From the NCBI RefSeq assembly GCF_008065095.1, contig NZ_CP042911.1:480001-512000 (forward strand): a stretch of 32,000 bases of DNA. The letters run 5' to 3'. The DNA is from Gemmata obscuriglobus. Its GTDB lineage: Bacteria; Planctomycetota; Planctomycetia; Gemmatales; Gemmataceae. The position numbers were made by a program, and so were the translations under genes. Below, one piece after another: positions 5,952 to 25,500 of the stretch. Each line of letters starts with the position of its first letter. Position 1 is the first letter of the stretch. Under the pieces are notes generated by a model. It did no database searches, was not told the origin of the DNA, and saw nothing but the letters and a program-made list of their open reading frames with translations.

Positions 5952-6032
5952 AATGGTCACACCTCGACAGCAGTTCACATTGTACTGTCGTCCGAATCGG
6001 CGGACCGGTCAACGCGCCGGGGTGTAAAGGGG

Positions 6033-12174: not shown

Positions 12175-12291
12175 CCGTGCCATCGGCCGGGGGTATGGCC
12201 GCGTTCACGCAGCGGAGCGCAAACGCAGCACCCGAAACGGTCCGCTGAAAGTCGCCCACCGCCCACGTCCAGCGCCCTGCGAGGAACCACG

Positions 12292-12870
12292 GTGATGATT
12301 GGTGGATCGAGACCCATTCTGACGGCGTTGGTGGCGATTGCGGTCCTTCTATCGGGCTCGGGGTGCGACCGCGGGCCGCGCAACTTCGGCGTGGTGGAAC
12401 CCGGCGTGCTGTACCGCAGCGGACAACTCACCCCGTCGGCGTTCGAGCGGCTCCTGACCGACCACGGCATCAAAACGGTCGTGAGCCTGCGGCCGCTGCG
12501 CGACGAGGCCGAGAAGTCGGACGCGCACGAAGAAACCATCTGCCAGTCGCGCGGAATCAAGTTCGTGCGAATTCCGCCCCGCGAGACGGGCGCGGAACCG
12601 GGCGGCAGCCCGTTGGAACCGGTCGCGCGGGAGTTTTTGGCCGTGATGGCTGATCCGGCGAACCACCCGGTTTACGTCCACTGCACCGCGGGCCGCGATC
12701 GCACCGGGACGGTGTGCGCCGTTTACCGCGTGGATCACGACGGCTGGTCCCCGGAACAGGCGGTTGCGGAAATGCGGACCTTCGGGTTCGACCCGGACAA
12801 GGACGCGGCCGCCGGCGCCTACACCCGTTACATCCTCTCCTACCGCCGGCGGGCCGAACCGAGTCGCTGA
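12292..12870 (+). CDS. Cys-based protein tyrosine / dual-specificity phosphatase, probable lipoprotein
   Basis: The active-site P-loop HCTAGRDRTG (CX5R) is present. The N-terminal signal ends LLSGSGC, which looks like a lipobox. Confidence 0.85.
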   Translation: MMIGGSRPILTALVAIAVLLSGSGCDRGPRNFGVVEPGVLYRSGQLTPSAFERLLTDHGIKTVVSLRPLRDEAEKSDAHEETICQSRGIKFVRIPPRETGAEPGGSPLEPVAREFLAVMADPANHPVYVHCTAGRDRTGTVCAVYRVDHDGWSPEQAVAEMRTFGFDPDKDAAAGAYTRYILSYRRRAEPSR

Positions 12871-13033
12871 AAGCCGGATGTCATCCGGCCGCCGCGCCTC
12901 ACACAGTAAAACGCAGCCAGCTCCGAACACGATCCGCCGGGGCGGCGCCGGAACAAAATTCCGAAATCGTGGATAAGTTGCAGCACGTCTCGGAAAGGTA
13001 CCTCCAGAAGAGCGAGGTGCGGAGGGCCGACGT

Positions 13034-14701
13034 GTGAGAACGCGAAGCGGGCGCGGCGGCGTGCTGGACCCGATCGTGCGGGCCGCGCTTGCGGCCGTGC
13101 GGCTGGGCGAACTGTCCGACGGCGAACTGCTCGCCCGGTTCGTTGCGACCCGGGACGAGGAGGCGTTCGCCGAACTGGTGCGCCGGCTCGGGTCGACCGT
13201 ATACGGGGTGTGTCACCGCGTCCTCGGCACCCGCGCCGACGCCGAAGACGCCTTCCAGGTCACATTTCTGGTGCTGGCCCGCAAGGCCGACACGGTCCGA
13301 CCGCCCGGGCGGGTCGCGGCGTGGCTGCACGGGGTCGCCGTGCTGACCGCCCGCAAGGCCCGCGCCGGGCGGCTCCGGCGGTTCGCCCGCGAACGCGCGC
13401 TCGGCGACACGCCCGAGCCATCTGCCGTATACACGCCGCCGGAGCCGGACCTCGGTCGGGTGCTGGACGAGGAGATCCAGCGGCTCCCGGACAAGTACCG
13501 GGCGGCGGTGGTGCTGTGCGAGGTGCGCGGGCTGACCGTCGCCCAGACCGCGGCCGAACTCGGGCTGCCGGTCGGCACGGTGGCCAGCCGGTTGGCCCGC
13601 GGGCGCGCCCTGCTGGCTTCGCGGCTCACCCGCCGCGGGGTCGCCGGCGCCGCGGCCGTGGGCGCCGCGGGCGGGCTCGCGAGCACCGCGATGGCCGCAC
13701 CGGCCAAGCTCTTCGGGTCCGCAGTTTCGGTTGCGTTCTCCGGGTCACAATGCGCCCCGGCAGGCGCGCAACTGCTTCTCAACGAGGTACTACGAGCCAT
13801 GAGCCTGAGCAAACTTCGCGCGTTCGCGGTCGCGACGGTGCTGAGCGGCGCGGCCGCCCTTGGCGGCGCCGGCCTGCTCCCGTCGGGGGCCGCGCCGGCG
13901 CTTGCTGCGCCGGTTCCCAAAGCCGCCCCGGGCGCCGCCGACCCGCTCGACCGGGTCAAGGTCGACAACATCGCCGGGCTGCTCAAGGTCGAGGCGATCC
14001 GCAAGGACATCCAACTGACCGCCGAGCAGGCCAAGAAGGTGGACGAGCTGCGCGGCCGGCGCAAGCAGGCGGTTGTGCCGAACGTGATCCAGCAGGGGCC
14101 GGTCGGCGGTGTTGTGATTGGCCCGGCAATGCCCGCCCGCCCGGCAATTCCTGTCGGCCCGGCAATGCCCGTCGGCCCGGCAATTCCCGTCGGGGGTGGC
14201 ATCCAAGTCGTGGACGTGGCCGTCGGGTTCAGTGGTATGGAGTCGCCCAGCGACCCCGAGTTTTACAAGGCCGCCGCCGAGATTCTGAAGCCCGAACAGA
14301 TGCGCCGGCTGAAGCAGCTCTCGCTGCAAGCGAAGGGACCGGTCGTGCTGCTCGACCGCCGGGTGATTCGGGCGCTCGGGCTGTCCGCCGAGCAAGAAGA
14401 CAAGATCGAAGCCGTGGCGCCCCCGGACCGGAGCAAGAACGGCGGCACGCTGGCGGTTCGGATGGTGAACGGGCGCGTCGAGGATCCGGAGGCCGAGCGG
14501 GACGTGGCCGCGTGGGAGGCCGCCCTCAAGGTGCTCACCGCCGAGCAGCGTGCCAAGTGGGACGGCCTCGTCGGCAAAGTGCTCCCGGCGGCCGAGTTGC
14601 GAAAGGCCCAAATCGTGTCGCTGGAGGAAATCAAGAACCTGATGCCCAACCTGCCGAACGTACCGAACATCAACCCGATCCCGGTGCCCCCGCCGGGCTG
14701 A
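13034..14701 (+). CDS. ECF (sigma-70 family) RNA polymerase sigma factor fused to a TM segment and an extracytoplasmic LTXXQ-repeat domain
   Basis: Sigma2 (AFAELVRR....VYGVCHRVLG...DAEDAFQVTFLVLARKA) and sigma4 (RLPDKYRAAVVLCEVRGLTVAQTAAELGLPVGTVASRLARGRALL) regions are present. A hydrophobic helix follows (LRAFAVATVLSGAAALGGAGLL), then about 270 further residues. Confidence 0.85.
   Translation: MRTRSGRGGVLDPIVRAALAAVRLGELSDGELLARFVATRDEEAFAELVRRLGSTVYGVCHRVLGTRADAEDAFQVTFLVLARKADTVRPPGRVAAWLHGVAVLTARKARAGRLRRFARERALGDTPEPSAVYTPPEPDLGRVLDEEIQRLPDKYRAAVVLCEVRGLTVAQTAAELGLPVGTVASRLARGRALLASRLTRRGVAGAAAVGAAGGLASTAMAAPAKLFGSAVSVAFSGSQCAPAGAQLLLNEVLRAMSLSKLRAFAVATVLSGAAALGGAGLLPSGAAPALAAPVPKAAPGAADPLDRVKVDNIAGLLKVEAIRKDIQLTAEQAKKVDELRGRRKQAVVPNVIQQGPVGGVVIGPAMPARPAIPVGPAMPVGPAIPVGGGIQVVDVAVGFSGMESPSDPEFYKAAAEILKPEQMRRLKQLSLQAKGPVVLLDRRVIRALGLSAEQEDKIEAVAPPDRSKNGGTLAVRMVNGRVEDPEAERDVAAWEAALKVLTAEQRAKWDGLVGKVLPAAELRKAQIVSLEEIKNLMPNLPNVPNINPIPVPPPG
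14120..14191 (+). repeat. in-frame tandem repeat, 4 x 18 bp (GGCCCGGCAAT[G/T]CCCGTC), encoding GPA(M/I)PV hexapeptides
   Basis: Four consecutive 18-nt units at 14120-14137, 14138-14155, 14156-14173 and 14174-14191, all inside the ECF extension. Confidence 0.9.
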
Positions 14702-15107
14702 TCGCGGCCTCGGCCGAGCGCACCTGGTCGTGGCGGCCCCGCCCGGCCGAAAGCTCTCCAACAAGGTGCAGAAGGGCCGCGGGGTTGAACGGCTTCGACA
14801 GCACCGCGGCCGCGCCCGCCGCGTGCGCGGCCGCCGGGAACGCGCTGCCGCCCCGCGGCGGCTCACCGGTCATGGCGACCACCACCGCCTCCGGGTCCAG
14901 GGCGCGCAACTGCCGGATCGTTTCCAGCCCGTCCAGGACGGGCATGAACTGGTCGCACACGACGACCGCGGCGGCGCGCCGCGCGTACGCCTGGACCCCG
15001 GCCCGCCCGTTCGAAGCCTCGGACACCTCGTGCCCGGCCTCCTCGAACACCATGCGCAGCAGGAGTTGCACCTGCGGGTCGTCGTCGATCAGAAGAACGT
15101 GAGCCAC
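14670..15107 (-). CDS. stand-alone response regulator receiver (CheY-like)
   Basis: Motifs VLLIDDD, the phospho-acceptor context VVCDQFMPVLDG, AMTG and SKPF are present. The start is GTG 15107 (AAGGG 8 nt upstream) or GTG 15152. It lies downstream of and on the same strand as the hybrid kinase. Confidence 0.8.
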   Translation of the reverse strand: MAHVLLIDDDPQVQLLLRMVFEEAGHEVSEASNGRAGVQAYARRAAAVVVCDQFMPVLDGLETIRQLRALDPEAVVVAMTGEPPRGGSAFPAAAHAAGAAAVLSKPFNPAALLHLVGELSAGRGRHDQVRSAEAAISPAGAPGSG

Positions 15108-15211
15108 CGTCGCACCCTTCAACAATAAGCGTCCCGCGCGAGCGAGCCGCACGGTTTACAGCGAACACGCGCCACGCCCCAGGCACGGCGCGCACTGCTT
15201 GAGGGGGTATG

Positions 15212-18200
15212 TCAGCCGTCCAGCACCGCGCGCACCTTGCGGGCCAGCGCTTCGGCCGTGAACGGCTTCTGGAGGAACGCCACCTCGGCCGACCGCACCC
15301 CGTGCCGCACGACCGCGTCGTCGGTGTACCCCGACACGTACAGCACCCGGAGCCCGGGGCGCGACCACTGGAGCGCCTCGGCCAGTTGCCGCCCGCCCAT
15401 CCCCGGCATCACCACGTCGGTGATCAGCAGCGGGAGCGGCCCGCGGTGGGCCGCGGCCGTCTGGAGCGCTTCGCCCGCGCCGGGCGCTTCGAGCACCGTG
15501 TACCCGCGCTCGCGGAGCACCTCGCGGGCCAGCGCCCGGACCTCCGTGTCGTCTTCGACCAGCAGAACCGTTTCCGTGCCATCCGGAACGGCCGGCAGCG
15601 GCGTCGCGACCCCCGACGAACCCGGGCCGGCGCCGGCGGCGGGGAAGTACACCTGGAACGTGGTCCCGTGACCGATCACGGAGTCCACCTCGATGTGCCC
15701 GCCCGCCTGCTCGACCACGCCGTGAACCACCGCGAGCCCCAGCCCGGTGCCCCGGCCCGCCCCCTTGGTGGTGAAGAACGGCTCGAACAGCCGCGCCTTC
15801 ACCTCGTCGGACATCCCGCACCCGGTGTCGGTCACGGAGAGCAGGACGTACCGCGCCCCGTCGCGCTCGACGTTGCTGGTCTCGACGGTGAGCCGGCCGC
15901 CGGTGGGCATCGCGTCGCGCGCGTTCACCACCAGGTTCATCAGCACCTGTTCCGCCTGCCCGGGGTCGGCCACCACCTGCGCCAGCTCCGGGTCCGCCAC
16001 CGTCGTCAGCTCGATGTCCTCGCCGATCAGCCGGCGCAGCAGCCGCTCGGCCTCGGCCACCACCACGTTGAGCGACAGCGGGCGCGGCTGGATCACCTCC
16101 TGGCGGCTGAACGCGAGCAGTTGCCGGGTGAGCCCGGCCGCCCGCTCGCCGGCCTTGACGATCTCGCCGACCAGGGTCCGCTCCCGCCCGGTCAGGCGGT
16201 CGCCGAGCATCCCGCCGAACCCCAGGATCACGGTGAGCAGGTTGTTGAAGTCGTGCGCCACCCCGCCCGCCAGCCGCCCCACCGCTTCCATCTTCTGGGA
16301 CTGGAGGAGCTGGGCCTCCAACTGCTTGAGCGGGCTCACGTCGGTCTGGATCGCGACGAAGTGGGTCAGCGCGCCCGCCCCGTCGCGGACCGGGGCCACC
16401 GTCAGCGCGTTCCAGAACGGCTTGCCGTCCTTGCGGTAGTTGAGCAGCTCGACCAGCGCGGCCCGCCCGTCCCGCAGCGCCGCGCGGACGGCCGCCACCG
16501 CGCTCGGGTCGGTGCCCTTGCCCTGGAGGAACCGGCAGTTGCGGCCCAGCGCCTCGGCGGCGGGGTAGCCGGTCATCCGCTCGAACCCCGGGTTCACGTA
16601 CACCAGGGGGTGGTCCGGCCGGGTGGCGTCGGCGATCGCGACCCCCTGGGGGAACGCCGCCAGCGCCCGGTCGCGGAGCCGCATCTGCTCCTCCGCCCGC
16701 CGCCGCTCGACGAACTGGGCGATCAGGTCCGCGGCGCCGCCGAGGGCCTCGCGCGCCGGGGCGCCGAGCGCGGTCCGGGCGAACGTGGCCAGCACCCCGA
16801 CCAGCCGCCCCTCGACCAGCAGCGGGTACCCGGCGAACCCGACCAGCCCCGCACTCCGGACGCGCTCCGGCTCGCCCGTCAGGGGGTCGTCGGCGACCGC
16901 ATCGGTCCAGTACGGCTTCCGCTCCTCGGCGATGCGCCCGACCAGCAGCCGGCCGACCGGGATCCGGGCGTACAGGCCGTCGGTGGACGCGGTCAGCCCG
17001 GCGCTGGCCCGCAGCTCCAGCACCGTGCCCCCTTCGGGCAGAACCCACACGCGCACCAGCGCCGCGCCGAGCTCGTCGACCACGGCCGCGCAGCACGCCC
17101 GCAGCGCCTCCGGCTTGTCGCCCCCGCGGGCCACCGCCGCGGCCACCCCGGCCCGCATCGCCGCGGCCCGCTCGCGCTCGGCCCGGCGCGCCTCGGCCCG
17201 GTTCCGCTCGGTCACGTCCCGGTTCACGCTCAGCACGGCCGGGCGGCCGTCGAACTCCACCACCGACGCGTTCACCTCCAGCTCCATGCGCGCCCCGTCG
17301 CGGCGGAACTGGACCGTCTCGAACTGGTACACGTCGCGCCCGTCGGTCGCCGCGGCGACGTGCACGAGTCCCCCCGCGGGGTCCGCCGACAGGTCGGCGA
17401 GCGACCGGCCGACGAACTCCTCGCGGGGCAGGCCGTACGCCCGGCACGCCGCGGGGTTCACGTCGAGCACCCGCTCGCCGTCCGGGTCGAACACCAGCAC
17501 CGGGTCGTGCGCGTGCTCGAACAGGGTGCGGTAGTACCGCTCGGACCGGGCCACCGCCTCGGCCGCCCGGCGCGAATCGGTCACGTCCCGGACGATGCTG
17601 GTGAAGAACGTCTCCCCGCCGGCCTCCCACGCGGTCACCGTCAGCTCGGCCGGGAACTCGGTCCCGTCCCGCCGCTGCGCGTCCACCGCCACCACCTGTC
17701 CCACCACCGACGACGGCCGCCCGGGCCGGTACTCGGCCAGCCGCCCCGCGTGGGCCGCCCGGTACCGGGCGGGGATGATGCGGGTGATGTCCGAGCCCGT
17801 GGCGGCCTCGGCCGGGCACCCGAACACGCGCTCCGCGCCGCGGTTCCACCCGACCACGAGCCCGTGCCGGTCGGTGGTGATGATCGCGTCCGTCGCGGAC
17901 TCCACCACCGACCGCAGCCGCTCCTCGCTCGCCCGCAGCTCCAGCTCGGCCTGCTTCCGCGCGGTGATGTCGCGGGACGTGATGACGACCCCGTCCCCGA
18001 GCGGCACCACCTGGTGCTGGAGCCAGCACGACACGCCCTCCGGCGTCTGAAACGGGAACTCCTCTTCGAGCGGCTCCCGGGTGACCACCACGCGGGCGTA
18101 CCGGTCACAGAACCCGCCGGTGCGGTTGACGGGGAGCATCTCGCACAGCCGCTGCCCGACGGTCTCGGCGCGGGTCCGCGCCACGAGGTGTTCGCCGGCC

Positions 18201-18748
18201 GGGTTCACGTCGTCGAACGTGAAGTCCGTAATCAGCCCGTCGGGGTCGCGGACGGCGGTCAGGAAGAACATGGCGTCGAGGCTGCCGTTCATCGCCGCCC
18301 GGAACCGCTCCTCGCTGGCCCGCAGCTCGGCCTCGACCCGGCGCCGCTCGGCCACCTCGCGCTCCAGCTCCTCCGGGGAGCGCATCGCGAACGCCTTCGG
18401 GATCACCGGCAGCAGCGACAGCACGGTGGCCCACGACACCACGGCGGTGGCGAGCTTGACGAGCCCGGCCAGCCGGTACGCGGGCCACCAGAAGATGATC
18501 GCCTCGATCAGGTGCGTGGTGCCGCACAGGAGGATGAACGCGCTGAACAGCCAGAACAGGTTGCGGAACGGGACATCCTTGCGGCGCCGCGCGAACAGCA
18601 CCAGCGCGATCGGGATGGCCAGGTACGCGGACCACACGCCCAGGTCGGACAGGATGTGCAGCCAGCCCAGCGGCGCGTCCCAGTTCCCGCACCGCCACCG
18701 GGCCGGGAAGTCGGACGTGTCGAACAGGGAGAGCCAAAAGTGTTGCAT
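15212..18748 (-). CDS. hybrid sensor histidine kinase: ETR1-like membrane domain, 3 PAS, GAF, LOV, HisKA, HATPase_c, receiver
   Basis: The H-box is AHDFNNLL (His codon 16255-16253). N/G boxes are NLVVNARDAM, DTGCGM and GTGLGL. The receiver context is LLITDVVMPGMGG. The LOV motif is GRNCRFLQG. The N-terminal triple-helix domain carries LCGTTHL. The start was set at ATG 18748 (MQHFW); the track ORF starts at a TTG at 18787. Confidence 0.9.
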   Translation of the reverse strand: MQHFWLSLFDTSDFPARWRCGNWDAPLGWLHILSDLGVWSAYLAIPIALVLFARRRKDVPFRNLFWLFSAFILLCGTTHLIEAIIFWWPAYRLAGLVKLATAVVSWATVLSLLPVIPKAFAMRSPEELEREVAERRRVEAELRASEERFRAAMNGSLDAMFFLTAVRDPDGLITDFTFDDVNPAGEHLVARTRAETVGQRLCEMLPVNRTGGFCDRYARVVVTREPLEEEFPFQTPEGVSCWLQHQVVPLGDGVVITSRDITARKQAELELRASEERLRSVVESATDAIITTDRHGLVVGWNRGAERVFGCPAEAATGSDITRIIPARYRAAHAGRLAEYRPGRPSSVVGQVVAVDAQRRDGTEFPAELTVTAWEAGGETFFTSIVRDVTDSRRAAEAVARSERYYRTLFEHAHDPVLVFDPDGERVLDVNPAACRAYGLPREEFVGRSLADLSADPAGGLVHVAAATDGRDVYQFETVQFRRDGARMELEVNASVVEFDGRPAVLSVNRDVTERNRAEARRAERERAAAMRAGVAAAVARGGDKPEALRACCAAVVDELGAALVRVWVLPEGGTVLELRASAGLTASTDGLYARIPVGRLLVGRIAEERKPYWTDAVADDPLTGEPERVRSAGLVGFAGYPLLVEGRLVGVLATFARTALGAPAREALGGAADLIAQFVERRRAEEQMRLRDRALAAFPQGVAIADATRPDHPLVYVNPGFERMTGYPAAEALGRNCRFLQGKGTDPSAVAAVRAALRDGRAALVELLNYRKDGKPFWNALTVAPVRDGAGALTHFVAIQTDVSPLKQLEAQLLQSQKMEAVGRLAGGVAHDFNNLLTVILGFGGMLGDRLTGRERTLVGEIVKAGERAAGLTRQLLAFSRQEVIQPRPLSLNVVVAEAERLLRRLIGEDIELTTVADPELAQVVADPGQAEQVLMNLVVNARDAMPTGGRLTVETSNVERDGARYVLLSVTDTGCGMSDEVKARLFEPFFTTKGAGRGTGLGLAVVHGVVEQAGGHIEVDSVIGHGTTFQVYFPAAGAGPGSSGVATPLPAVPDGTETVLLVEDDTEVRALAREVLRERGYTVLEAPGAGEALQTAAAHRGPLPLLITDVVMPGMGGRQLAEALQWSRPGLRVLYVSGYTDDAVVRHGVRSAEVAFLQKPFTAEALARKVRAVLDG

Positions 18749-18916
18749 GGCGCGCGGTCTTGGGTCCAACACGTTGCCCGGCACCAACTCTATAACATGG
18801 CTGCGACAGGCAAAGCCGGTTGGCCGCTTTCCGTGCGCGGCGCCTCCGCTGTGGTTGAAATGTTGTTGCCAGGCGACAACGGGCCGGCGCGAGGGGCGCT
18901 ATTTTGAGGCGGGCCG

Positions 18917-20896
18917 TCAGCGGGCGCCGACGGCCCGGAAGTTCGCTCGCGCCTGATCGAACGCCGCGACCGCCCGGGCCAGGCCGGGCGCCAACTTCTC
19001 GACCGCCTGTCGGCAGGCCGGGGCGAGCGCCCCGAGTTCGCCGAGCCGGCGCTCCAGTTCGGCCAGGGCCTGCTGCTGGCGGGCGCGATATTTCACGACC
19101 AGCGCCTGTTGCTCGGCCGGAGACGTGGCGCCCCGCGGGTCGAACCGGAACGCCCGCAGCACCTCGTTCTTCCAGGCCATGACGTTGTTCGTCAGGGCGT
19201 CCCCGAACCCTTTGATCCCGCGCACCCGGTCCCACTCCACGTCGGCCGCCGTCACGACCCCGGCGGCGGCCAGGGTCTGTTTTCGCCCCGCCCCGATCTT
19301 CGGGATTTCGGCGTCCGCGAGCGGGTGGAGTTGGAGGTGCCGGCGGAGCGCCGCCGCTTCCGCGTGTGCGGCCAGTTGTCGCACCTCCCCTTGATACTGC
19401 GACGCCAGGGCGCGGCACTCGTCGACGAGGCGCCGGACGCGGCGGTCCCCGTCCGCGTGATCGCGCTGGTACGCGCGGACCCGCCGGCGCCACTTGTCTT
19501 CGAGGTCTGCGAGGTCGTCGCTCGCGTGCCGGTACGCCGCGCGGCGGCGGCGGTACTCCTGCCGCCACGGCGACCGCGCGACCAGCACCGCCAGCCACCC
19601 GCCGAACGCCAGCGCACCCAAAAGGGCGATGACGCACATGAACTCGCGGACCAGCCCCAGCGGCATCGCCAGCGCGCACAGTGCGGCCGCGCCGCCGACG
19701 ATCCGCGTCACGTTCCGGTGCTCGTCGAGCCCCTCCGGGAGCGGGTCCGGCGCGGGGGCGGCCGGCGGGGCGAACCGGGCGCGGTCGTAGCGGAACTCGG
19801 CCGGTTGGGTGCGGCCCAACCGCTCCAGCACGTCCCGCAACTTCTCCTCATCGACCTCGAAAGTGCCCGAAGTGCCGCCGGCGCCGAAGAAGTACTCCGG
19901 CCCGCCCCGGGCCGCCAGCCGGCACCACACGCACCCGCCAACGGCCCCGCGCCAGTACCGGTGCCCCGGGTCGGCCGCGCAGAGCACGGATTCCTGTTCG
20001 AGGGCCTGGAGCGCGGGCACCCACTCGGCGGCGCTGGGGCGCCCCCCGGCCTCGCTCCCGCGCTCGAACGCCCGGCAGAACAGGTTCCCGAGGTCGGGCG
20101 GGATGTCGGCGAAGGTCGGCGTGTGCGGCGGCGGCGCCATTCCCCAGGTGTGCGCCCGCGGCCCCTGGGCGAACTTGAACCCGGCGATCAGTTCCTCGAA
20201 CGACGGGTCGTCCGGCCCGGTGTACACCCCGGCGTAGGGGTGCCGGCCGACGAACAGGAGCTGATAAATCAGCACCGCCAGCCCGAACCGGTCGTGGTTC
20301 TCGGTCCGCACCAGCCCGCGCAGGTGCTGGCCCTGTAACTCCGGCGGGGTGTAGTGCGGGGTGCCCACGTCGCACAGGTACGACGCGCCGCCGGCGCGCA
20401 CCTGGAACGAGTCGCAATCGATCAGCCCGATGCGGGCGTCCGGCAGCACCAGCGCGTTGCTCTGGTTCACGTCGCACACCAGGCACCCGGCCTTGTGCAC
20501 CTCGTCGAACGCGGCCGCCAAGTTCCGCGCGGCGGCGACCTGAAAGGTCCAGCCGGCGCGCGGGAACGCCTTGAGCCGCATGACCGGGTTGTAGAGCTGC
20601 TGGACCGGGTGGCCGTTCGACACGCGCGGCATGACGAACCCGGCCGCGGCGCGGGTCCGCGCGTCGAACAGCACCGCGGTCGGCCACGCGGTCATTTGCT
20701 TGAGCGCCGGGCTGGCGAGCGCGACCATCGCGGCCAGCTTCTCGCCGCGCCGCGGGTCGCCCGGCTTGAGGTACACTTTCGCGACCTGGGCGGGGTCGTT
20801 GGGCAGGGCGAACACGGCCCCCTCGCCGCCCGACGCGAGGTGCGCGGCGAGCGGGAACGGGCGCCCCTGGGCGTCGATCAGTGCGGGTGGGGTCAT
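18917..20896 (-). CDS. yegI: membrane-anchored Ser/Thr protein kinase of the vWA-PP2C-kinase triad (YegI-like) with C-terminal helix-hairpin-helix motifs
   Basis: Kinase elements are GGEGAVF (G-loop), VAKVY (Lys), CDVNQSN (catalytic loop), IDCDSF (DFG equivalent) and GTPHYTPPE. A Cys cluster (C..H....CVWC) and two hydrophobic helices follow. HhH-like IPKIGAGRKQTLAAAGV and IKGFGDALTNNV lie near the C-terminus. The ATG overlaps the stop of the PP2C gene (ATGA). Confidence 0.85.
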   Translation of the reverse strand: MTPPALIDAQGRPFPLAAHLASGGEGAVFALPNDPAQVAKVYLKPGDPRRGEKLAAMVALASPALKQMTAWPTAVLFDARTRAAAGFVMPRVSNGHPVQQLYNPVMRLKAFPRAGWTFQVAAARNLAAAFDEVHKAGCLVCDVNQSNALVLPDARIGLIDCDSFQVRAGGASYLCDVGTPHYTPPELQGQHLRGLVRTENHDRFGLAVLIYQLLFVGRHPYAGVYTGPDDPSFEELIAGFKFAQGPRAHTWGMAPPPHTPTFADIPPDLGNLFCRAFERGSEAGGRPSAAEWVPALQALEQESVLCAADPGHRYWRGAVGGCVWCRLAARGGPEYFFGAGGTSGTFEVDEEKLRDVLERLGRTQPAEFRYDRARFAPPAAPAPDPLPEGLDEHRNVTRIVGGAAALCALAMPLGLVREFMCVIALLGALAFGGWLAVLVARSPWRQEYRRRRAAYRHASDDLADLEDKWRRRVRAYQRDHADGDRRVRRLVDECRALASQYQGEVRQLAAHAEAAALRRHLQLHPLADAEIPKIGAGRKQTLAAAGVVTAADVEWDRVRGIKGFGDALTNNVMAWKNEVLRAFRFDPRGATSPAEQQALVVKYRARQQQALAELERRLGELGALAPACRQAVEKLAPGLARAVAAFDQARANFRAVGAR

Positions 20897-21645
20897 GGGC
20901 GGCGGGCGGCTAGTACGAGCGTCTTGTCGTCGTCGGTGCGCTCGTTCACGCGGGCGGAGTTGAGGAACTGACGCAGCGGCTCGAACAGGGCTTCGGTGTC
21001 GGGCTCGGTCCGGAGCCGCCGGAACAGCGGTGTGAAGAACCCGGCGTGCGGGGCGCGGGCGGCGAAATCCAGTGCCAGGCGCTGGAGCCCGTCTGTCAGT
21101 GCGGCGAGTTCGGTCACCCGGTCGGCGACCACCTCGGTCCGGATCGCGCCGGCGAACCCGTCGTCGGTCAGGAAGTCGGTGGCGTTGGCGTACTCCGCCG
21201 GTTCGGGCCAGAACACGACGCGGTACCCGTCACCCGCCCCGCACACGATCGCCCCGTCGCCGAGTTGTGCGAACGCCGCGGTCTCCGGGCCGACCAGGGC
21301 CACGAGCGCCGTCGAGGCCAACTCGCGGGGCGGCACCTCCAGGGCGTCGGCCCGCGCCAGGACGGCCGAGCGGACGGCGGCGAACAGGTCGACGAGCGCC
21401 GCCGGCGCGCACAGGTCGGCGGGCACCGCCCGCGTCACGAGGCGCACGAACTCGTCGCACACCAGTTCGGCCCCGACATCGGACCGGGACGCGCTGCCCG
21501 CGCCGTCGGCCACGGCCACGAGCAGCCAGGCGCCGCCCGGACCGCAGTGGCAGACCCGGAACGCGTCCTGACAGGGAACGCTCCGGGCCGCGTGGGAGGT
21601 GCCGGGGGCGCTTTCGCCGAGGGTCCGCCAAATCGGGTCGGTCAC
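20893..21645 (-). CDS. yegK: PP2C-family Ser/Thr phosphatase of the triad (YegK/PphC-like)
   Basis: Motifs GTSH....PCQDA, VAVADGAGSAS, LGDGAIV, AEYANATDFLTD, LTDGLQRLAL, PHAGFFTPLF and VNERTDDDKTLVLA are present. The GTG start at 21645 overlaps the vWA stop (GTGA). The longer track ORF to 21936 runs out of frame through the vWA gene. Confidence 0.85.
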   Translation of the reverse strand: MTDPIWRTLGESAPGTSHAARSVPCQDAFRVCHCGPGGAWLLVAVADGAGSASRSDVGAELVCDEFVRLVTRAVPADLCAPAALVDLFAAVRSAVLARADALEVPPRELASTALVALVGPETAAFAQLGDGAIVCGAGDGYRVVFWPEPAEYANATDFLTDDGFAGAIRTEVVADRVTELAALTDGLQRLALDFAARAPHAGFFTPLFRRLRTEPDTEALFEPLRQFLNSARVNERTDDDKTLVLAARRP

Positions 21646-22391
21646 AGGCTGGCCCACCCGGCCGGCGGCGCCAGTTTGACCTGCTCCTCCTGGCCCGGGT
21701 TGGAGTGGGACACGCTCCGCTGCGACTGCGACAGCCAGAGGAACATCTCCTTGAAGCTGTACCCCTTGAGGTGCAACGGCTGGCGAACGGAGATCTGCTT
21801 CAGCCGGTCCATGTTCGCCCCCTCCACGCCCACGGCGAAGAACGCGAACTGCTTCTTTTCCTCCCCCTCGCGCACGCGGGCCGCCGCGGCCTCCCACGCG
21901 TCGGTGGGTTCGCCGTCGGTGATCAAGAAGATCCACGGGCGGTAGAAGTGGAGCCCGTTCTGCCGGTACTCGCGCTTGCGCTCGGTGACCGCGTCGATCG
22001 CCTTCAGGATCGCCGCGCCCATCGGCGTTTCGCCGTTCGCGGTCAGAACGGGCGGGGTGAACTGCGATGTCGTCACGAACGGGGTGACGGTCCGGACCGT
22101 GTCGCCGAACGTGACGACGGACACCTCGACGCGCTGGGCCGCGAGCGGGTCGTTCGTCACGTCCGCCTGGTACACGCGCAGGCCCTCGTTGACCAAATCG
22201 ATCCGGGTCGTGCCGCCGGAAACGACCCGGTACGTCTTCCCGTCAACCTGGGCGGTGCGTCCCAGGTCGCGGCCGGTGCCGCTCACCACTTCCGCCATCG
22301 ACCCGGAGGTGTCGATGAGCAGCACGCACGGGCACCGCGGTTCCGGGTTGGTCGCCAGGGCGACATCACTGAACGGGATTTGTTCGGCCAC
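21642..22391 (-). CDS. yegL: TerY/YegL-type von Willebrand factor A domain protein
   Basis: AEQIPFSDVALATNPEPRCPCVLLIDTSGSM (MIDAS DxSxS), TPMGAA, YRPWIFLITDGEPTD and FAFFAVGVEGANM are present. The start was set at GTG 22391, which matches the family N-terminus; the track ORF starts at GTG 22445. Confidence 0.85.
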   Translation of the reverse strand: MAEQIPFSDVALATNPEPRCPCVLLIDTSGSMAEVVSGTGRDLGRTAQVDGKTYRVVSGGTTRIDLVNEGLRVYQADVTNDPLAAQRVEVSVVTFGDTVRTVTPFVTTSQFTPPVLTANGETPMGAAILKAIDAVTERKREYRQNGLHFYRPWIFLITDGEPTDAWEAAAARVREGEEKKQFAFFAVGVEGANMDRLKQISVRQPLHLKGYSFKEMFLWLSQSQRSVSHSNPGQEEQVKLAPPAGWASL

Positions 22392-22872
22392 GAGCGACCC
22401 CCGAACGGCTTTGAGCGGCGTTCTGCCTCGGACGAGTATATTCACACCTCGCCGCGGCGGGCAGTCGCGGGCGGTCGGCGGCCCGTCACCGTTCTGCCGG
22501 CCGTCAGGGCCGGACCGACTTCACGGCGGCGTTGCCGAACCAGACGACTCGGTAGTTTTGGTCCAGGGGGTCGAGGCCGCACGCACGCTGCTGGGGGCAG
22601 CTAAGAATTCGCGCCGACGCACTCACACGCACGCCCATCACCCGCCTCGTATCGCCTCGACGCAACGGCGCGAATTAAGCCGCCGCGCGGGCGCCGTTCC
22701 AAGTGAAATGACGCCCGGTCGGATGCCAGATCCGGCCGGGCCGACGCCGCACGCTTGATCAAACTCAAAGGGGGTTGGCACCGAGATGCAGTTAATCAAC
22801 TGTGACGGCTCGGCCGACCGGCGAGGCGTGGACGTGGTCACTCCGAAGGCCCGGATCAGGGCAGCCGCCCGG

Positions 22873-23100
22873 TCACTCTTTCAGCTTCCAGACTTTCGCG
22901 GTCTTATCGGCCGAGCCAGTGACGGCGACAGCCGGGGGCCAGAACGGTCTCCACCAGCAGCCACGCGAGCCGTGGGAGCCGAGTGCAGGACCAGAGTGGT
23001 TGCAAGGGCCGAAAACCACTGGCACGACGAAGGCACCAGATGCGATGGTGACGCAGTCGCGTCCATCCCAAGCGAGGGTGCTGTGGTAACCCCATCGTCT
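22873..23100 (-). pseudogene. decayed WD40-repeat fragment
   Basis: The minus-strand translation ends ...AVTGSADKTAKVWKLKE, a WD40 blade signature. Upstream WD-like pieces are scattered over different frames. There is no intact start or N-terminal part. Confidence 0.35.
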
Positions 23101-23335
23101 GGACGAGTCGGCGCCTGTATACCTACCCTTACTCAGCCGCTCGAATACAGGAAGCCGCGCAAAGTACAGCCACAGCCGAGAATAAACCGCACGAAAACAT
23201 CGGCAACGAGACCACAACCCAAAAAACGCCGGTCAGGCCCAGCGCGTCAACCCGAAAACGGGTGAACCCGCCGGCACGATCGATACCACGAGTATCGCCG
23301 ACACGACCGATCGACAGCGCTCTCGTTCAAGACAG

Positions 23336-23370
23336 AAGGCCCGCATCTCCAAAAGGGTGTGGGCCTTTTC
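23336..23370 (+). terminator. orphan intrinsic-terminator-like hairpin (plus-strand polarity)
   Basis: AAGGCCCGCA-12 nt-TGTGGGCCTT followed by TTC. A G:U pair forms only in the plus-strand RNA (it becomes C:A on the minus strand). No convincing upstream plus-strand gene exists. Confidence 0.35.
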
Positions 23371-23390
23371 ACACGTTAGAATCGGACCTT

Positions 23391-23419
23391 TTGACCCCTC
23401 GGGTAACCTCCGATACTTT
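23391..23419 (+). promoter_or_regulatory. putative sigma70-like promoter of the channel-like gene: TTGACC, 17-nt spacer, TACTTT
   Basis: The hexamers and spacing were read directly from the sequence. The promoter lies 35 nt upstream of ATG 23455. Confidence 0.35.
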
Positions 23420-23454
23420 ACCCTGATCTTAGTACGTGCCACCTGGTAGTTCTC

Positions 23455-24543
23455 ATGAGCGTTATGCTTTGCAACTGGGCGTTTTGGAGAATTCCGGCGA
23501 TTGTCGCTTGGTTCTGTCTAGGCTTCGCTACCTGGCGGGTGTTCGCGCCCGACAGCGTCAATGTGCGATTCTTGTGGGTCGCACTCTACCCACTGTGCGT
23601 AGGCTGCGTGCACCTAATCAGTCAGAGGCTCGGCACCTTTCTGCTGTACTCAGCAAATCTGGTCTTCTTCCCAGTTCTGGCTACCGTCTGGTTGGTGCGT
23701 AAAATGCACTACCCAGCGATACTGCTTCATCGCGCGACACACTCCTACACCGCGCCAGTGTACCTAATGCTGGTAGCAATTTGCGTTATTGTGTTAACGA
23801 ATTTGGATAACTTAGATCTCATCCAGGGATTTTCCCTCCTGCTTGTGGCAATCAACTTTTTTCTTGTCGTTAGCGGGGTACGATGGGCGACAAATCCAGT
23901 AAAACCCGTTAACGCTCTTACTCAACTGTTCCATGAACTGTGCGTAACGGTCAGGCGAAAGGATCCGGCCAAACACACAGCCGACGAAGTCAAAAAAGAC
24001 CTGAACAACATTGTCTTGATATTTTCGTACCTCACCCCGATCCTAAGGCGGTTCGAGGCGCATGTCGTCTCCTCGATCTCATTCGGATTCATGCTTTACT
24101 TCTTGATGCTGTTCGGAGTTACAGTTGTGTCGTATGCGTCGATCTACTACGCACTCGCCGCAATTGGGGAAGAACAGTTAAAGGGACTTTCGCCGCACTT
24201 CTACGACTGTCTCCTCTACAGCGTGAGTGTCCTGACCACTTCACCGCTCGGCGGCATCGAGACAGTTTCACGGTTCGCTAAGACAATGTATTGCCTGGAG
24301 TTGCTGTCCACCGTGTCACTTGTCACGTTGTTTGTCTCAATTTTTTCGGTCGGGCTCAGCATGCAAGAGGGATCGATCAACGAAATCAAGGACCGACTCA
24401 CGGCTACCGGGGCACACATGATGAACGAACTTAACGCTTCGCAGGAGGCCGTTGCCTTGCTTACAGCCCCCCCCCCGCCGACAGGCCCCGACCTTCAGAA
24501 GCCCGAAAAGAAAGTGAAGTCTTCGAGTAAGCCCAAGCCTTAA
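23455..24543 (+). CDS. low-G+C orphan membrane protein with a C-terminal K-channel-like 2TM pore module and a degenerate selectivity filter
   Basis: The 362-aa protein has about 5 N-terminal hydrophobic helices and a charged linker. The linker is followed by TM, pore helix and filter-like FYDCLLYSVSVLTTSPLGGIE, then a final TM (compare channel consensus F.DA.Y.S..T.TTVGYGD). Single lines inside the gene count 35-50% G+C. Confidence 0.65.
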   Translation: MSVMLCNWAFWRIPAIVAWFCLGFATWRVFAPDSVNVRFLWVALYPLCVGCVHLISQRLGTFLLYSANLVFFPVLATVWLVRKMHYPAILLHRATHSYTAPVYLMLVAICVIVLTNLDNLDLIQGFSLLLVAINFFLVVSGVRWATNPVKPVNALTQLFHELCVTVRRKDPAKHTADEVKKDLNNIVLIFSYLTPILRRFEAHVVSSISFGFMLYFLMLFGVTVVSYASIYYALAAIGEEQLKGLSPHFYDCLLYSVSVLTTSPLGGIETVSRFAKTMYCLELLSTVSLVTLFVSIFSVGLSMQEGSINEIKDRLTATGAHMMNELNASQEAVALLTAPPPPTGPDLQKPEKKVKSSSKPKP

Positions 24544-24593
24544 CCCTGCCTGCTCGTACCAGACGTATACACCTCCCAGAACGCAGGGTTTTT
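24542..24593 (+). terminator. possible terminator of the channel-like gene
   Basis: AACCCTGC ... GCAGGGTT followed by TTTG. The loop is unusually long (33 nt), so this is a weak call. Confidence 0.3.
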
Positions 24594-24671
24594 GTCATCC
24601 TCCACACGGACGCGAGAGGGAATCACGATCCCCGACTCCGCTCGGACTCAAGCAAGTTACCCAAGACAGTT

Positions 24672-24775
24672 CGCCGTTACCGCTCGGTAAGGCCGGGGTT
24701 CAGAGGTAGCTCCCTGGCCTGAGCGCCAGGTAAAATATCGTCTCCGAACCCCGGCCTTACTGCGCGGTAACGGCG
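24672..24775. repeat. 104-nt composite palindrome (34-nt arms with 3 mismatches, with an inner hairpin in the spacer)
   Basis: Left arm CGCCGTTACCGCTCGGTAAGGCCGGGGTTCAGAG (24672-24705). The reverse complement of the right arm (24742-24775) is CGCCGTTACCGCGCAGTAAGGCCGGGGTTCGGAG. The spacer contains CCTGGC-CTGAGC-GCCAGG. Confidence 0.85.
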
Positions 24776-24791
24776 GGCTGTCAGGAACCCA

Positions 24792-25154
24792 CTACACGAG
24801 CCGTCCACCAGTCAACCGTATCACAAACCAATCGGGCGGCGCTTTTTCCCAAACCTCTTCCCCATACAGCATGTGTTTGCCCTGTGGAGTTGAATACAAG
24901 GTTGCTTCGACCATTGCGTGCTCTTCGTCCGGTCGTCCTCTGTTCCAAACGGCTCTGCCGGTGAAGCGGCTGCCCGAGTGTTGTTTGATCACGATCAGTG
25001 TCGTCCCGTCCCCATCGGGCCAGTCGATGACGATTTCGTCATCCCGAAATATCACCCTCGGAAGTGGCTCTCCGAAACCGGAGGGGCCGCGCCCCTTGTC
25101 CCACGTGCCTCGCGCATCGTAGTGGGTTACCGATTCCCACTCTTGTTCAGCCAC
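24792..25154 (-). CDS. small hypothetical protein (ORFan, about 120 aa)
   Basis: The start was set at GTG 25154, preceded by GAGGAG at a 6-nt spacing. Amino-acid composition is ordinary and G+C is reduced. No domain was recognised. The N-terminal part of track ORF 24792..25340 is Arg/Gly-rich shadow sequence. Confidence 0.5.
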   Translation of the reverse strand: MAEQEWESVTHYDARGTWDKGRGPSGFGEPLPRVIFRDDEIVIDWPDGDGTTLIVIKQHSGSRFTGRAVWNRGRPDEEHAMVEATLYSTPQGKHMLYGEEVWEKAPPDWFVIRLTGGRLV

Positions 25155-25195
25155 TGCGTTCTCCTCGTGTGCCCGAAAGGTCACGGAAAGAGTAC

Positions 25196-25500
25196 CTACT
25201 TCCCGATGGGGGCGAGCGCCTTGTCGGTGCGGATGAAGATCCGCCCGCCCGCGATCGCCGGGGTGCCCAGCGCCTCGCCCGGGAGGTCGTTGGTCGCCAG
25301 CCCCTCGAACCCGTCCGCCTTGGCGTCCGGCACCGCGCACGAGCCGGTCTCGTTCAGCACGTACACCTTCCCGTCGGCCGCCACCGGGGACGCCCCGCGC
25401 GCCGAGCTTGAACGCGCTCGCCCCGCCGGTGGGCAGGTACAGCGTGTCGCCGTCGGAGGTGCCGGTCGTCGTCGGTTGGAGTGATCGGCGGGAACTGAGG
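25196..25500 (-). pseudogene. frameshifted C-terminal fragment of a PQQ-like beta-propeller repeat protein
   Basis: The tail ...PVAADGKVYVLNETG......GTPAIAGGRIFIRTDKALAPIGK is a typical last blade. The preceding blade (SDGDTLYLPTGGASAFKLGARG) is in another frame, and the N-terminal bulk of the protein is absent. Confidence 0.5.

What the first reader, a model, noticed from the sequence alone, without database searches (positions are those of the whole stretch)
18917..22391. Tightly coupled vWA / PP2C / membrane Ser-Thr-kinase triad (TerY-P, yegL-yegK-yegI type) of unknown function
Three minus-strand genes are joined by 4-nt start/stop overlaps, GTGA at 21642-21645 and ATGA at 20893-20896. The vWA protein has an intact MIDAS motif (DTSGS) and the TerY/YegL N-terminus. 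The PP2C protein is collinear with E. coli YegK/PphC as recalled from memory. The kinase is the atypical YegI type: it keeps a catalytic D..N and a DCD in place of DFG. It also has a Cys cluster, two TM helices, a coiled region and two C-terminal helix-hairpin-helix motifs, which suggests nucleic-acid contact. The triad was defined by comparative genomics (the TerY-P triad of Anantharaman, Iyer and Aravind). Its signal, its substrates and any role in stress or phage conflict remain unestablished.
Basis: partly seen in the sequence, partly recalled or inferred. Interest (0 to 1): 0.7.

Follow-up and report, generated by a model that had tools for sequence, protein, structure and literature searches.

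The report
YegL–PphC–YegI-type vWA/phosphatase/kinase operon
This is a real, tightly coupled three-gene operon in a Gemmata genome: a metal-binding vWA protein, a PP2C phosphatase and a membrane-anchored Ser/Thr kinase, a clear counterpart of the partly characterised E. coli yegL-pphC-yegI genes, so it is an ordinary new member of a large known family whose cellular role is still unproven.

Summary
Three minus-strand genes (vWA 21642-22391, PP2C 20893-21645, kinase 18917-20896) are joined by GTGA and ATGA overlaps. They are collinear homologues of E. coli YegL (53% identity), PphC/YegK (39%) and YegI (34% over the full length).

All catalytic and metal-binding residues are conserved. An AlphaFold model (pLDDT 88) gives this order: kinase domain, CHCC zinc module, tight TM hairpin, roughly 10-12 nm antiparallel coiled coil, and a double helix-hairpin-helix head. 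The gene order vWA-PP2C-kinase is kept in at least 74 of 80 loci from many bacterial phyla and Methanoregula archaea. No fourth gene is conserved. The kinase family has about 3,200 representatives at 50% identity and occurs on 52 plasmids.

The E. coli enzymes are already characterised biochemically. This locus does not match the PADLOC TerY-P models, and its neighbourhood is not a defence island.

Verdict: new member of a known kind, modest interest. Two small new points: a Gemmatales-only 27-residue insert beside the MIDAS site, and an invariant Ser-rich vWA tail as a candidate phospho-acceptor.

The parts
21642..22391 (-). vWA/MIDAS protein, YegL (TerY-type), 249 aa, cytoplasmic
   Evidence: Pfam VWA 1.5e-11 and VWA_2 2.8e-7. 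53% identity to E. coli YegL, E=1e-82, end to end. MIDAS residues D27, S29, S31, T122 and D159 are invariant in 71/71 homologues; the N-terminal NPEPRCPC signature is conserved.
22212..22292 (-). 27-residue insert (residues 34-60) immediately after the MIDAS DxSxS loop, specific to Gemmatales
   Evidence: Present in all 9 Gemmatales sequences in the alignment (the window plus 8 loci) and absent from the other 62, and from E. coli YegL. The conserved pattern G-x-T-x-Q-x-DG-x-x-Y/F-x-x-V-S-GG suggests a beta-hairpin. Function unknown.
21642..21735 (-). Conserved Ser-rich C-terminal tail of the vWA protein (W219-L-S221-x-S223-x4-S228-x-S230-x-P232 ... P243-x-G245-W246)
   Evidence: S221, S223, S228 and S230 are each conserved in 70/71 homologues. 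That these are phospho-acceptor sites is my inference, not tested.
21642..21645 (-). GTGA stop/start overlap between vWA and PP2C
   Evidence: Read directly from the sequence. E. coli yegL and pphC also overlap by 4 nt (coordinates).
20893..21645 (-). PP2C-type Ser/Thr phosphatase, PphC/YegK orthologue, 250 aa
   Evidence: Pfam PP2C_2 9.2e-47, covering profile positions 2-206 of 209. 39% identity to PphC, E=1e-50. Metal-binding Asp residues D27, D47 (PphC D46), D130, D185, D239 and D240 are conserved in 71-72 of 72 homologues.
20893..20896 (-). ATGA stop/start overlap between PP2C and kinase
   Evidence: Read directly from the sequence. The same ATGA overlap is reported for pphC-yegI in E. coli B and O157 strains (bioRxiv 10.1101/819920).
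19997..20896 (-). Atypical Hanks-type Ser/Thr kinase domain (residues 1-300) of the YegI-type kinase
   Evidence: Pfam Pkinase 1.5e-5, below the cut-off. Foldseek hits to PknA, PknB, Aurora and CaMKII at E about 1e-7, TM about 0.65-0.72. GGEG, K40, D142, D160, D162 and S163 are conserved in 83/83, C161 in 80/83 and N147 in 72/83. 34% identity to YegI over the full length, E=7e-99.
19910..19990 (-). CHCC zinc-binding module (C306, H312, C322, C325)
   Evidence: All four ligands are invariant in 83/83. The model shows a beta-hairpin 303-315 followed by helix 323-329. Metal binding is inferred.
19577..19711 (-). Transmembrane helical hairpin (residues about 396-440) with a 3-residue loop
   Evidence: This is the only region with a Kyte-Doolittle 19-residue mean above 1.4. 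It is followed by the strongly basic RSPWRQEYRRRR. The model has helices 390-415 and 418-440. E. coli YegI is experimentally two-pass with both ends cytoplasmic (bioRxiv 10.1101/819920).
19331..19570 (-). Outgoing arm of the antiparallel coiled-coil stalk (helix 443-522, about 12 nm)
   Evidence: AlphaFold models with pLDDT 88 (full length) and 96.7 (C-terminal part). Foldseek's best global matches are SMC and SH3BP5 coiled coils.
19154..19312 (-). Double helix-hairpin-helix-like head (residues 529-581: IPKIGAGRKQTL... and IKGFGDALT...)
   Evidence: Local Foldseek match to the RadA N-terminal domain (1t4g, 2f1i): 64 columns, rmsd 2.8 A, prob 0.99, E 0.39. The hairpin glycines are mostly kept across the family (G563 67/83, G565 58/83, G535 51/83) and W575 almost always (81/83). 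JGI, NCBI and UniRef name homologues as HhH proteins. No Pfam HhH model hits.
18926..19120 (-). Returning arm of the coiled-coil stalk (helices 593-634 and 636-657)
   Evidence: AlphaFold models.
22392..22516 (-). 5' leader / presumed promoter region of the operon
   Evidence: Nucleotide similarity to Gemmata algarum JC673 (95.8%) runs from 15211 to 22516 and stops there. No sigma-70-like promoter was found, so the role of this stretch is inferred only.

Best explanation
The locus is a self-contained, translationally coupled three-gene phosphorylation switch of the YegL-PphC-YegI type. This is the helix-hairpin-helix subtype of the TerY-P triad.

Shown for the E. coli orthologues and inferred here from conserved residues: the kinase is an active, Mn2+-preferring Ser/Thr kinase that autophosphorylates its activation segment in trans, and the PP2C removes those phosphates and resets it.

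Inferred from the model: the kinase sits on the cytoplasmic face of the membrane, held by a tight TM hairpin with no outside sensor domain. Its C-terminal antiparallel coiled coil holds a small double-HhH head roughly 10-12 nm from the membrane. That head most likely contacts DNA, so the input signal would be cytoplasmic and nucleic-acid related rather than extracellular.

My inference, untested: the cytoplasmic vWA protein is the third partner. It could be the phosphorylation-controlled adaptor or output, with its invariant Ser-rich tail as substrate and its MIDAS metal site binding an acidic or phosphorylated ligand.

The most likely cellular role is conflict or DNA-stress surveillance (foreign DNA or phage) rather than metabolism. 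I put about 0.95 on the identity and enzyme chemistry, about 0.5 on DNA contact by the head, and about 0.3-0.35 on a defence role.
For: Gene structure and overlaps. Family hits. Collinear similarity to YegL, PphC and YegI. Catalytic, MIDAS, PP2C and zinc ligands invariant across about 70-83 homologues. High-confidence models, the kinase fold and the local RadA-HhH match. The vWA-PP2C-kinase order is kept in at least 74 of 80 loci from Planctomycetota, Pseudomonadota, Acidobacteriota, Armatimonadota, Synergistota and Methanoregula archaea, with no conserved fourth gene. The family is large and mobile: 3,210 representatives at E<=1e-30 and 52 plasmid records.

Literature. YegI is active, prefers Mn2+, requires K39, D141 and the DSD motif, is two-pass with both termini inside, and shows second-order kinetics (bioRxiv 10.1101/819920). 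PphC dephosphorylates YegI (bioRxiv 10.1101/303594). Overproduced YegL or YegI raises endogenous DNA damage in E. coli (bioRxiv 10.1101/354589). TerY-P triads with an OB fold or zinc ribbon in the same C-terminal position are anti-phage or are embedded in restriction systems (PMC11090510; PMC7699616; bioRxiv 10.1101/2022.08.12.503731).
Against: No Pfam HhH model recognises the head, and the structural match has a non-significant E-value (0.39). DNA binding has never been shown for any YegI. PADLOC's TerY-P-related models barely touch the vWA protein (E=0.003) and miss the PP2C and kinase. The window neighbourhood has no PADLOC hits. Neighbours in 31 diverse loci are mostly housekeeping genes, with only a few defence or mobile genes. 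No substrate other than the kinase itself is known, and no inducing condition is known in E. coli (PMC13232886). Two of the three YegI autophosphorylation serines (S153, S160) are Ala and Cys here, so regulatory detail may differ.
Confidence: 0.8

Rival explanations
1. It is a stand-alone anti-phage defence system equivalent to the experimentally validated TerY-P system. Phage infection activates the kinase, and phosphorylation of host or phage proteins blocks replication without killing the cell.
For: It has the same three-domain composition as TerY-P, which protects against T7-like phages and Autographiviridae with most cells surviving (PMC7699616; bioRxiv 10.1101/2022.08.12.503731). The kinase domain gives weak hits to the PD-T4-6 defence kinase (E=2.8e-7). 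The family is patchy, crosses the bacteria/archaea boundary and occurs on plasmids. A few loci sit next to SoFic, type I R-M, MADS or integrase genes. The flank upstream of the operon is a low-GC segment absent from the nearest relative.
Against: It does not meet the PADLOC TerY-P models. The validated systems carry an OB fold, not a TM hairpin, coiled coil and HhH head (PMC11090510). There is no defence-island context in the window or in most loci. E. coli K-12 carries yegL-pphC-yegI in its chromosome, and I found no report of a phage phenotype.
Confidence: 0.3
2. It is a metal or oxidative-stress (tellurite-type) sensing switch, as first proposed for TerY-P triads. The MIDAS site reports metal status and the kinase/phosphatase pair transmits it.
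For: This is the original hypothesis, as summarised in PMC11090510. All three proteins depend on divalent metal: the MIDAS site, the Mn2+-dependent PP2C and the Mn2+-preferring kinase (bioRxiv 10.1101/819920 and 10.1101/303594). An invariant CHCC site could be redox or metal sensitive.
Against: None of the roughly 20 window ORFs scanned against Pfam is a ter gene (TerB/C/D/Z), and none appears among the families listed for neighbours of 31 other loci. This model gives no role to the conserved coiled-coil/HhH part. No metal phenotype has been reported for yegLKI in the papers I could read.
Confidence: 0.15
3. The triad works together with the downstream hybrid histidine kinase (15212-18787) and response regulator (14670-15152) as one larger signalling unit specific to this Gemmata lineage.
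For: The genes lie on the same strand with a gap of only about 130-170 nt and no terminator-like site between them. The block of response regulator, histidine kinase and triad is the only part of this region that is syntenic with G. algarum JC673.
Against: The linkage is absent from other Gemmataceae and from all other loci. Histidine-kinase-like neighbours occur at scattered positions and on both strands. Such sensor kinases are very abundant in planctomycete genomes, so adjacency is expected by chance (my own knowledge).
Confidence: 0.1

Closest known systems
E. coli YegL - PphC (YegK) - YegI
   Same: All three proteins are collinear, at 53%, 39% and 34% identity. The gene order and 4-nt overlaps are the same (bioRxiv 10.1101/819920). 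The kinase has a V-x-D-V-N-Q catalytic loop in place of HRD, a D-x-D-S motif in place of DFG, a CHCC site, a two-helix membrane hairpin and a C-terminal coiled coil with an HhH-like head. The PP2C keeps PphC's D46 equivalent.
   Different: This kinase keeps the canonical catalytic-loop Asn (N147) where YegI has Ser, and has DCD rather than DSD. In my sample DCD is the majority form (80/83), though one of the three search patterns favoured it. Two of YegI's three autophosphorylated serines are not conserved. The vWA protein carries a 27-residue Gemmatales-specific insert. There is no yegJ or yegD neighbour.
TerY-P anti-phage system (Gao et al. 2020; P. aeruginosa variant of Costa et al.)
   Same: The same triad of TerY-like vWA, PP2C phosphatase and Ser/Thr kinase forms a compact cassette (PMC11090510; PMC7699616).
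   Different: The validated kinases end in an OB fold. This one has a TM hairpin, coiled coil and HhH head. PADLOC models do not recognise the PP2C or the kinase and only graze the vWA protein (E=0.003). No phage phenotype is known for the YegI subtype.
TerY-P triads embedded in type II / III-A CoCoNuT (McrBC-related) systems
   Same: A triad whose kinase is followed by a zinc ribbon (PMC11090510). This kinase also has an invariant zinc module right after the catalytic domain.
   Different: No McrBC/CnuB, CnuC, CnuH or HEPN genes appear among the window ORFs scanned or among the families listed for neighbours of 31 other loci. Here the zinc module is followed by membrane, coiled-coil and HhH parts.
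Hanks-type bacterial kinase / PP2C pairs such as PknB-PstP and PrkC-PrpC
   Same: A kinase fold (Foldseek match to PknA/PknB) with an adjacent PP2C that dephosphorylates the kinase.
   Different: There is no extracellular PASTA or other sensor domain. The catalytic motifs are atypical, there is an obligatory vWA partner, and the C-terminal module is cytoplasmic.

Membership tests
YegL-PphC-YegI operon family (COG4245 / PP2C_2 / COG4248 type) | Full-length collinear similarity of each of the three proteins to the E. coli prototypes | tested here: met
   BLASTP E=1e-82, 1e-50 and 7e-99, each covering essentially the whole protein.
YegL-PphC-YegI operon family (COG4245 / PP2C_2 / COG4248 type) | Gene order vWA - PP2C - kinase on one strand with minimal or negative spacers | tested here: met
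   GTGA and ATGA overlaps. The same order is found in at least 74 of 80 genome loci; most of the rest are cut off by the contig end.
YegL-PphC-YegI operon family (COG4245 / PP2C_2 / COG4248 type) | Atypical kinase motifs: catalytic Lys and Asp kept, D-x-D-S in place of DFG | tested here: met
   K40, D142, D160, D162 and S163 are 83/83 in the family alignment, and the window has DCD. The E. coli equivalents are essential (bioRxiv 10.1101/819920).
YegL-PphC-YegI operon family (COG4245 / PP2C_2 / COG4248 type) | Two-pass inner-membrane topology with both termini cytoplasmic | tested here: met
   In silico only: a single hydrophobic hairpin at 396-440 with a basic stretch after it and two modelled helices. 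The topology was shown experimentally only for E. coli YegI.
YegL-PphC-YegI operon family (COG4245 / PP2C_2 / COG4248 type) | C-terminal helix-hairpin-helix DNA-binding module | tested here: inconclusive
   No Pfam HhH hit at E<=10. Support comes from a local structural match to the RadA HhH domain with prob 0.99 but E=0.39, partly conserved G-x-G hairpins and source names.
TerY-P triad (comparative-genomics definition) | TerY-type vWA with an intact MIDAS site, plus a PP2C, plus a Ser/Thr kinase in one neighbourhood | tested here: met
   The definition is taken from PMC11090510. The original paper (Anantharaman et al. 2012) was not available.
TerY-P triad (comparative-genomics definition) | Linkage to ter genes (TerB/C/D/Z) or to DNA restriction/processing genes | tested here: not met
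   No such families among the roughly 20 window ORFs scanned. Only sporadic R-M genes appear in other loci. This linkage is frequent in the class, not obligatory.
TerY-P anti-phage defence system (as modelled in PADLOC-DB v2) | Significant match of the component proteins to the defence-system HMMs | tested here: not met
   vWA against the TerY model gives E=0.0033 over 50 residues only. The PP2C has no hit. The kinase hits only PD-T4-6 models. E. coli YegL, PphC and YegI behave the same way.
TerY-P anti-phage defence system (as modelled in PADLOC-DB v2) | Kinase with a C-terminal OB fold | tested here: not met
   The modelled C-terminus is a TM hairpin, coiled coil and HhH head. The OB-fold description is from PMC11090510.
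TerY-P anti-phage defence system (as modelled in PADLOC-DB v2) | Protection against phage on expression | not testable with these tools
   This needs plaque assays.

The most novel reading that the evidence does not exclude
The YegI-type kinase is a membrane-tethered sensor of cytoplasmic DNA. A coiled-coil stalk of set length holds a double-HhH head about 10-12 nm below the membrane. Contact with incoming or abnormal DNA (phage, plasmid or damaged chromosome) drives trans-autophosphorylation. The signal passes to the vWA partner through its invariant Ser-rich tail and MIDAS site. That would make this a defence or surveillance mechanism distinct from the validated OB-fold TerY-P systems, with a Gemmatales-specific insert beside the MIDAS site altering partner choice.
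Probability: 0.2. Interest if true: 0.6.

Novelty: new member of a known kind. Interest (0 to 1): 0.3.

Why it matters
The enzymes of the yegL-pphC-yegI family are characterised, but its signal, substrates and cellular role are unknown, even though the family is very large (thousands of 50%-identity clusters across bacteria and archaea). This Gemmata copy adds no new principle.

The comparison does sharpen some testable ideas:
- The cassette is self-sufficient, with no conserved fourth gene.
- The kinase has no external sensor. It has a stalk with a likely nucleic-acid-binding head, and the stalk varies in length between lineages.
- The vWA partner has four invariant serines in its tail that could be the missing substrate.

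If the defence reading holds, it would extend the validated TerY-P systems to a much larger, membrane-anchored subtype that current defence-finding models do not detect.

Tried and rejected
- Pfam HhH detection on the isolated C-terminal fragments at E<=10 found nothing.
- PADLOC on the three proteins, and on the E. coli prototypes as a control, gave no TerY-P-level match.
- NCBIfam gave only sub-threshold hits, to lanthionine-synthetase kinase domains and Stp1.
- PDB sequence searches found no solved relative of the vWA or PP2C proteins. The kinase found only distant eukaryotic kinases.
- Foldseek on the C-terminal model was dominated by generic coiled coils. Only a local RadA match was informative.
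- The search for a conserved fourth gene used all-against-all clustering of ORFs from 80 loci. It found only generic sensor kinases, ABC transporters and TypA-like GTPases at scattered positions.
- The defence-island test on 124 neighbours from 31 loci showed a few defence or mobile genes and no pattern. Without matched controls it is not a statistic.
- The promoter/terminator scan found no promoter, and terminator-like sites were at the shuffle expectation.
- Rfam and tRNA scans of the whole window found nothing.
- The 44-aa ORF that the Logan assemblies call upstream of the vWA gene (window 22504-22638) was noted but not analysed further.
- The original TerY-P paper and Gao et al. 2020 could not be read. 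Their content is cited through PMC11090510 and PMC7699616.
- Coupling to the downstream histidine kinase was considered and ranked low, because it is confined to the closest relative.

Full report
**Observation**

The ORF table and direct reading of the junctions confirm three minus-strand genes at the stated coordinates:
- vWA protein, 21642-22391, GTG start, 249 aa
- PP2C phosphatase, 20893-21645, GTG start, 250 aa
- kinase, 18917-20896, ATG start, 659 aa

The overlaps are GTGA at 21642-21645 and ATGA at 20893-20896. The start codons are supported by homology, since alignments to the E. coli proteins begin at residues 1, 6 and 2. The window is about 70% G+C and full of long shadow ORFs. The three genes have the high third-position G+C expected of real genes.

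**Family assignment**

Pfam gives VWA (E=1.5e-11) and VWA_2 for the first protein and PP2C_2 (E=9e-47, nearly full profile) for the second. For the third it gives Pkinase at E=1.5e-5, which is below Pfam's cut-off.

I fetched the E. coli K-12 yegI-yegL region and compared directly. YegL is 53% identical (E=1e-82), PphC/YegK 39% (E=1e-50), and YegI 34% over all 659 residues including the C-terminal half (E=7e-99). The closest database relative of the kinase is from Gemmata sp. JC717 (97%), and G. algarum JC673 matches at 97%. Many homologues are named [quoted passage not shown] by JGI.

**Anatomy of the kinase**

An AlphaFold model built on 47 homologues has mean pLDDT 88.4. It shows, in order:
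- a kinase domain, residues 1-300
- a beta-hairpin plus helix carrying C306, H312, C322 and C325
- a linker
- two helices at 390-415 and 418-440
- an 80-residue helix at 443-522
- a small helical segment at 529-581
- returning helices at 593-657

Foldseek places the N-terminal domain with PknA, PknB and eukaryotic kinases (E about 1e-7, TM about 0.65-0.72).

In an alignment of 83 family members, GGEG, K40, D142, D160, D162, S163 and the four zinc ligands are invariant. C161 is present in 80 and N147 in 72. One of the three search patterns contained DCD, so that count is biased. The hydrophobic hairpin at 396-440 is the only hydrophobic stretch in the protein and is followed by RSPWRQEYRRRR. 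This fits the experimentally determined topology of E. coli YegI, with both termini cytoplasmic (bioRxiv 10.1101/819920).

A separate model of residues 441-659 has pLDDT 96.7. Its global structural neighbours are antiparallel coiled coils such as SMC and SH3BP5. The segment between the long helices matches the N-terminal HhH domain of RadA locally (1t4g, 2f1i: 64 columns, rmsd 2.8 A, prob 0.99, E=0.39). No Pfam HhH model detects it. I therefore treat the double HhH as probable, not proven.

Longer family members (795-950 aa; Zavarzinella and others) keep every module but have extra predicted helical, charge-rich sequence before and after the membrane hairpin. The stalk length is therefore variable.

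**The other two proteins**

MIDAS residues D27, S29, S31, T122 and D159 are invariant in 71 of 71 vWA homologues, as is most of the N-terminal NPEPRCPC signature. Two points were not in the finding.
- All nine Gemmatales sequences in the alignment (the window plus eight loci) carry a conserved 27-residue insert directly after the DxSxS loop. The other 62 sequences and E. coli lack it.
- The C-terminal tail has four serines (S221, S223, S228, S230), each conserved in 70 of 71 sequences.

The PP2C keeps all metal-binding aspartates, including the equivalent of PphC D46, whose mutation abolishes activity (bioRxiv 10.1101/303594).

**Conservation and context**

A pattern scan of one genome per species returned at least 583 loci, of which 80 were fetched. 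The vWA and PP2C genes lie immediately upstream of the kinase, in the same order, in at least 74 of these. Most exceptions are contigs cut at the end. The hosts span Planctomycetota, Pseudomonadota, Acidobacteriota, Armatimonadota, Synergistota and Methanoregula archaea.

Clustering of all flanking ORFs found no fourth conserved gene. The 124 nearest neighbours from 31 diverse loci fall into 174 Pfam families, with none in more than four proteins. A few are defence or mobility genes: SoFic in three, one type I R-M locus, one PD-T4-6 kinase, MADS components and two integrases. There is no consistent island.

The kinase family has 3,210 representatives at 50% identity with E<=1e-30. It occurs on 52 plasmid records, 22 of them conjugative. 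Phage records give only three weak hits.

In the window itself the neighbours are:
- a hybrid histidine kinase and a response regulator downstream
- a low-GC orphan segment upstream
- two IS elements
- glycosyltransferases, ECF-type sigma factors, an aldose epimerase and a dehydratase

None of the ten neighbouring ORFs I tested hits PADLOC. Compared with G. algarum JC673, only 14752-22516 is syntenic, and the upstream low-GC segment is absent there.

**What is already known**

YegI is an active kinase that prefers Mn2+. [quoted passage not shown] PphC is a Mn2+-dependent PP2C that dephosphorylates YegI (bioRxiv 10.1101/303594). Neither gene is detectably expressed under laboratory conditions (PMC13232886). 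Overproduction of YegL or YegI raises endogenous DNA damage in E. coli (bioRxiv 10.1101/354589).

The TerY-P triad was proposed as a metal-sensing phosphorylation switch. Versions with an OB-fold kinase are stand-alone anti-phage systems, and versions with a zinc-ribbon kinase are embedded in CoCoNuT restriction systems (PMC11090510; PMC7699616). A P. aeruginosa TerY-P protects against Autographiviridae with most cells surviving (bioRxiv 10.1101/2022.08.12.503731). PADLOC models do not recognise either this locus or the E. coli prototype.

**Mechanism**

Shown by homology to characterised enzymes: a kinase/phosphatase pair in which the PP2C reverses kinase autophosphorylation.

Inferred from the model: the kinase is anchored to the inner face of the membrane, has no external sensor, and probably pairs through its coiled coil. 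It presents a small probable nucleic-acid-binding head about 10-12 nm from the membrane. The input is therefore likely cytoplasmic and DNA related.

My inference, untested: the vWA protein is the regulated partner, with its Ser-rich tail as substrate and its MIDAS site binding an acidic or phosphorylated ligand.

A conflict or DNA-surveillance role is the best guess (about 0.3-0.35). Metal or oxidative stress sensing (about 0.15) and lineage-specific coupling to the adjacent histidine kinase (about 0.1) come next.

**Verdict**

The finding is real and correctly interpreted. It is a new member of a large, named and partly characterised family, not a new kind of system. Interest is modest (0.3). 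The small additions are the Gemmatales-specific insert, the invariant serine tail, the stalk-and-head picture of the kinase, and the absence of any conserved fourth gene.

Noticed in passing
window 15212-18787 (-) and 14670-15152 (-): Immediately downstream of the triad is a 1,191-aa hybrid histidine kinase. It has an ethylene-receptor-like N-terminal membrane domain (ETR1_N, E=5.6e-37), several PAS domains, a GAF domain, HisKA/HATPase and a receiver domain. A stand-alone response regulator follows it. The block is syntenic with G. algarum JC673.
   Followed up: partly
window 22517-25194, especially 23000-25000: A low-GC segment (54-55% against about 70% elsewhere) lies directly upstream of the operon. 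It is absent from G. algarum JC673. It holds a 362-aa multi-helix membrane ORF (23455-24543, +) and a 182-aa ORF (24792-25340, -), neither with any Pfam or PADLOC hit. It is probably horizontally acquired DNA of unknown function.
   Followed up: partly
window 8803-9669 (+) and 9801-11051 (+): Two insertion-sequence transposase genes sit in a lower-GC stretch (62-66%). One has rve integrase core and HTH_21 domains; the other has DDE_Tnp_1 and DDE_Tnp_1_assoc domains.
   Followed up: no
window 22212-22292 (-): A 27-residue insert directly after the MIDAS DxSxS loop of the vWA protein. It is conserved in all nine Gemmatales sequences in the alignment (the window plus eight loci) and absent from the other 62 sequences and from E. 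coli YegL.
   Followed up: partly
loci L008, L010, L012, L013; proteins P0076, P0098: Some Gemmatales (Zavarzinella, Limnoglobus, Fimbriiglobus) have 790-950-aa versions of the kinase. These carry extra charge-rich helical sequence on both sides of the membrane hairpin but the same HhH-like head, so the stalk length varies.
   Followed up: partly
window 12977-14701 (+) and 26950-28686 (+): Two ECF-type sigma-factor genes (Sigma70_r2 and r4_2) with long C-terminal extensions of about 350-400 residues that match no family.
   Followed up: no
window 5124-6008 (-) and 12175-12870 (+): A predicted PolB-related 3'-5' exonuclease (DNA_pol_B_exo2, E=7e-32) and a dual-specificity/tyrosine phosphatase-like protein (PTP-NADK / Y_phosphatase2, E about 1e-15). 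Neither hits PADLOC.
   Followed up: no
locus L001 (E. coli K-12 NC_000913 2143000-2160000): In E. coli K-12 the yegL-pphC pair lies next to the sibA/ibsA and sibB/ibsB toxin-antitoxin loci. yegJ interrupts the operon on the opposite strand. A 2026 paper reports that YegJ binds RNase E and induces yegD (PMC13232886).
   Followed up: no
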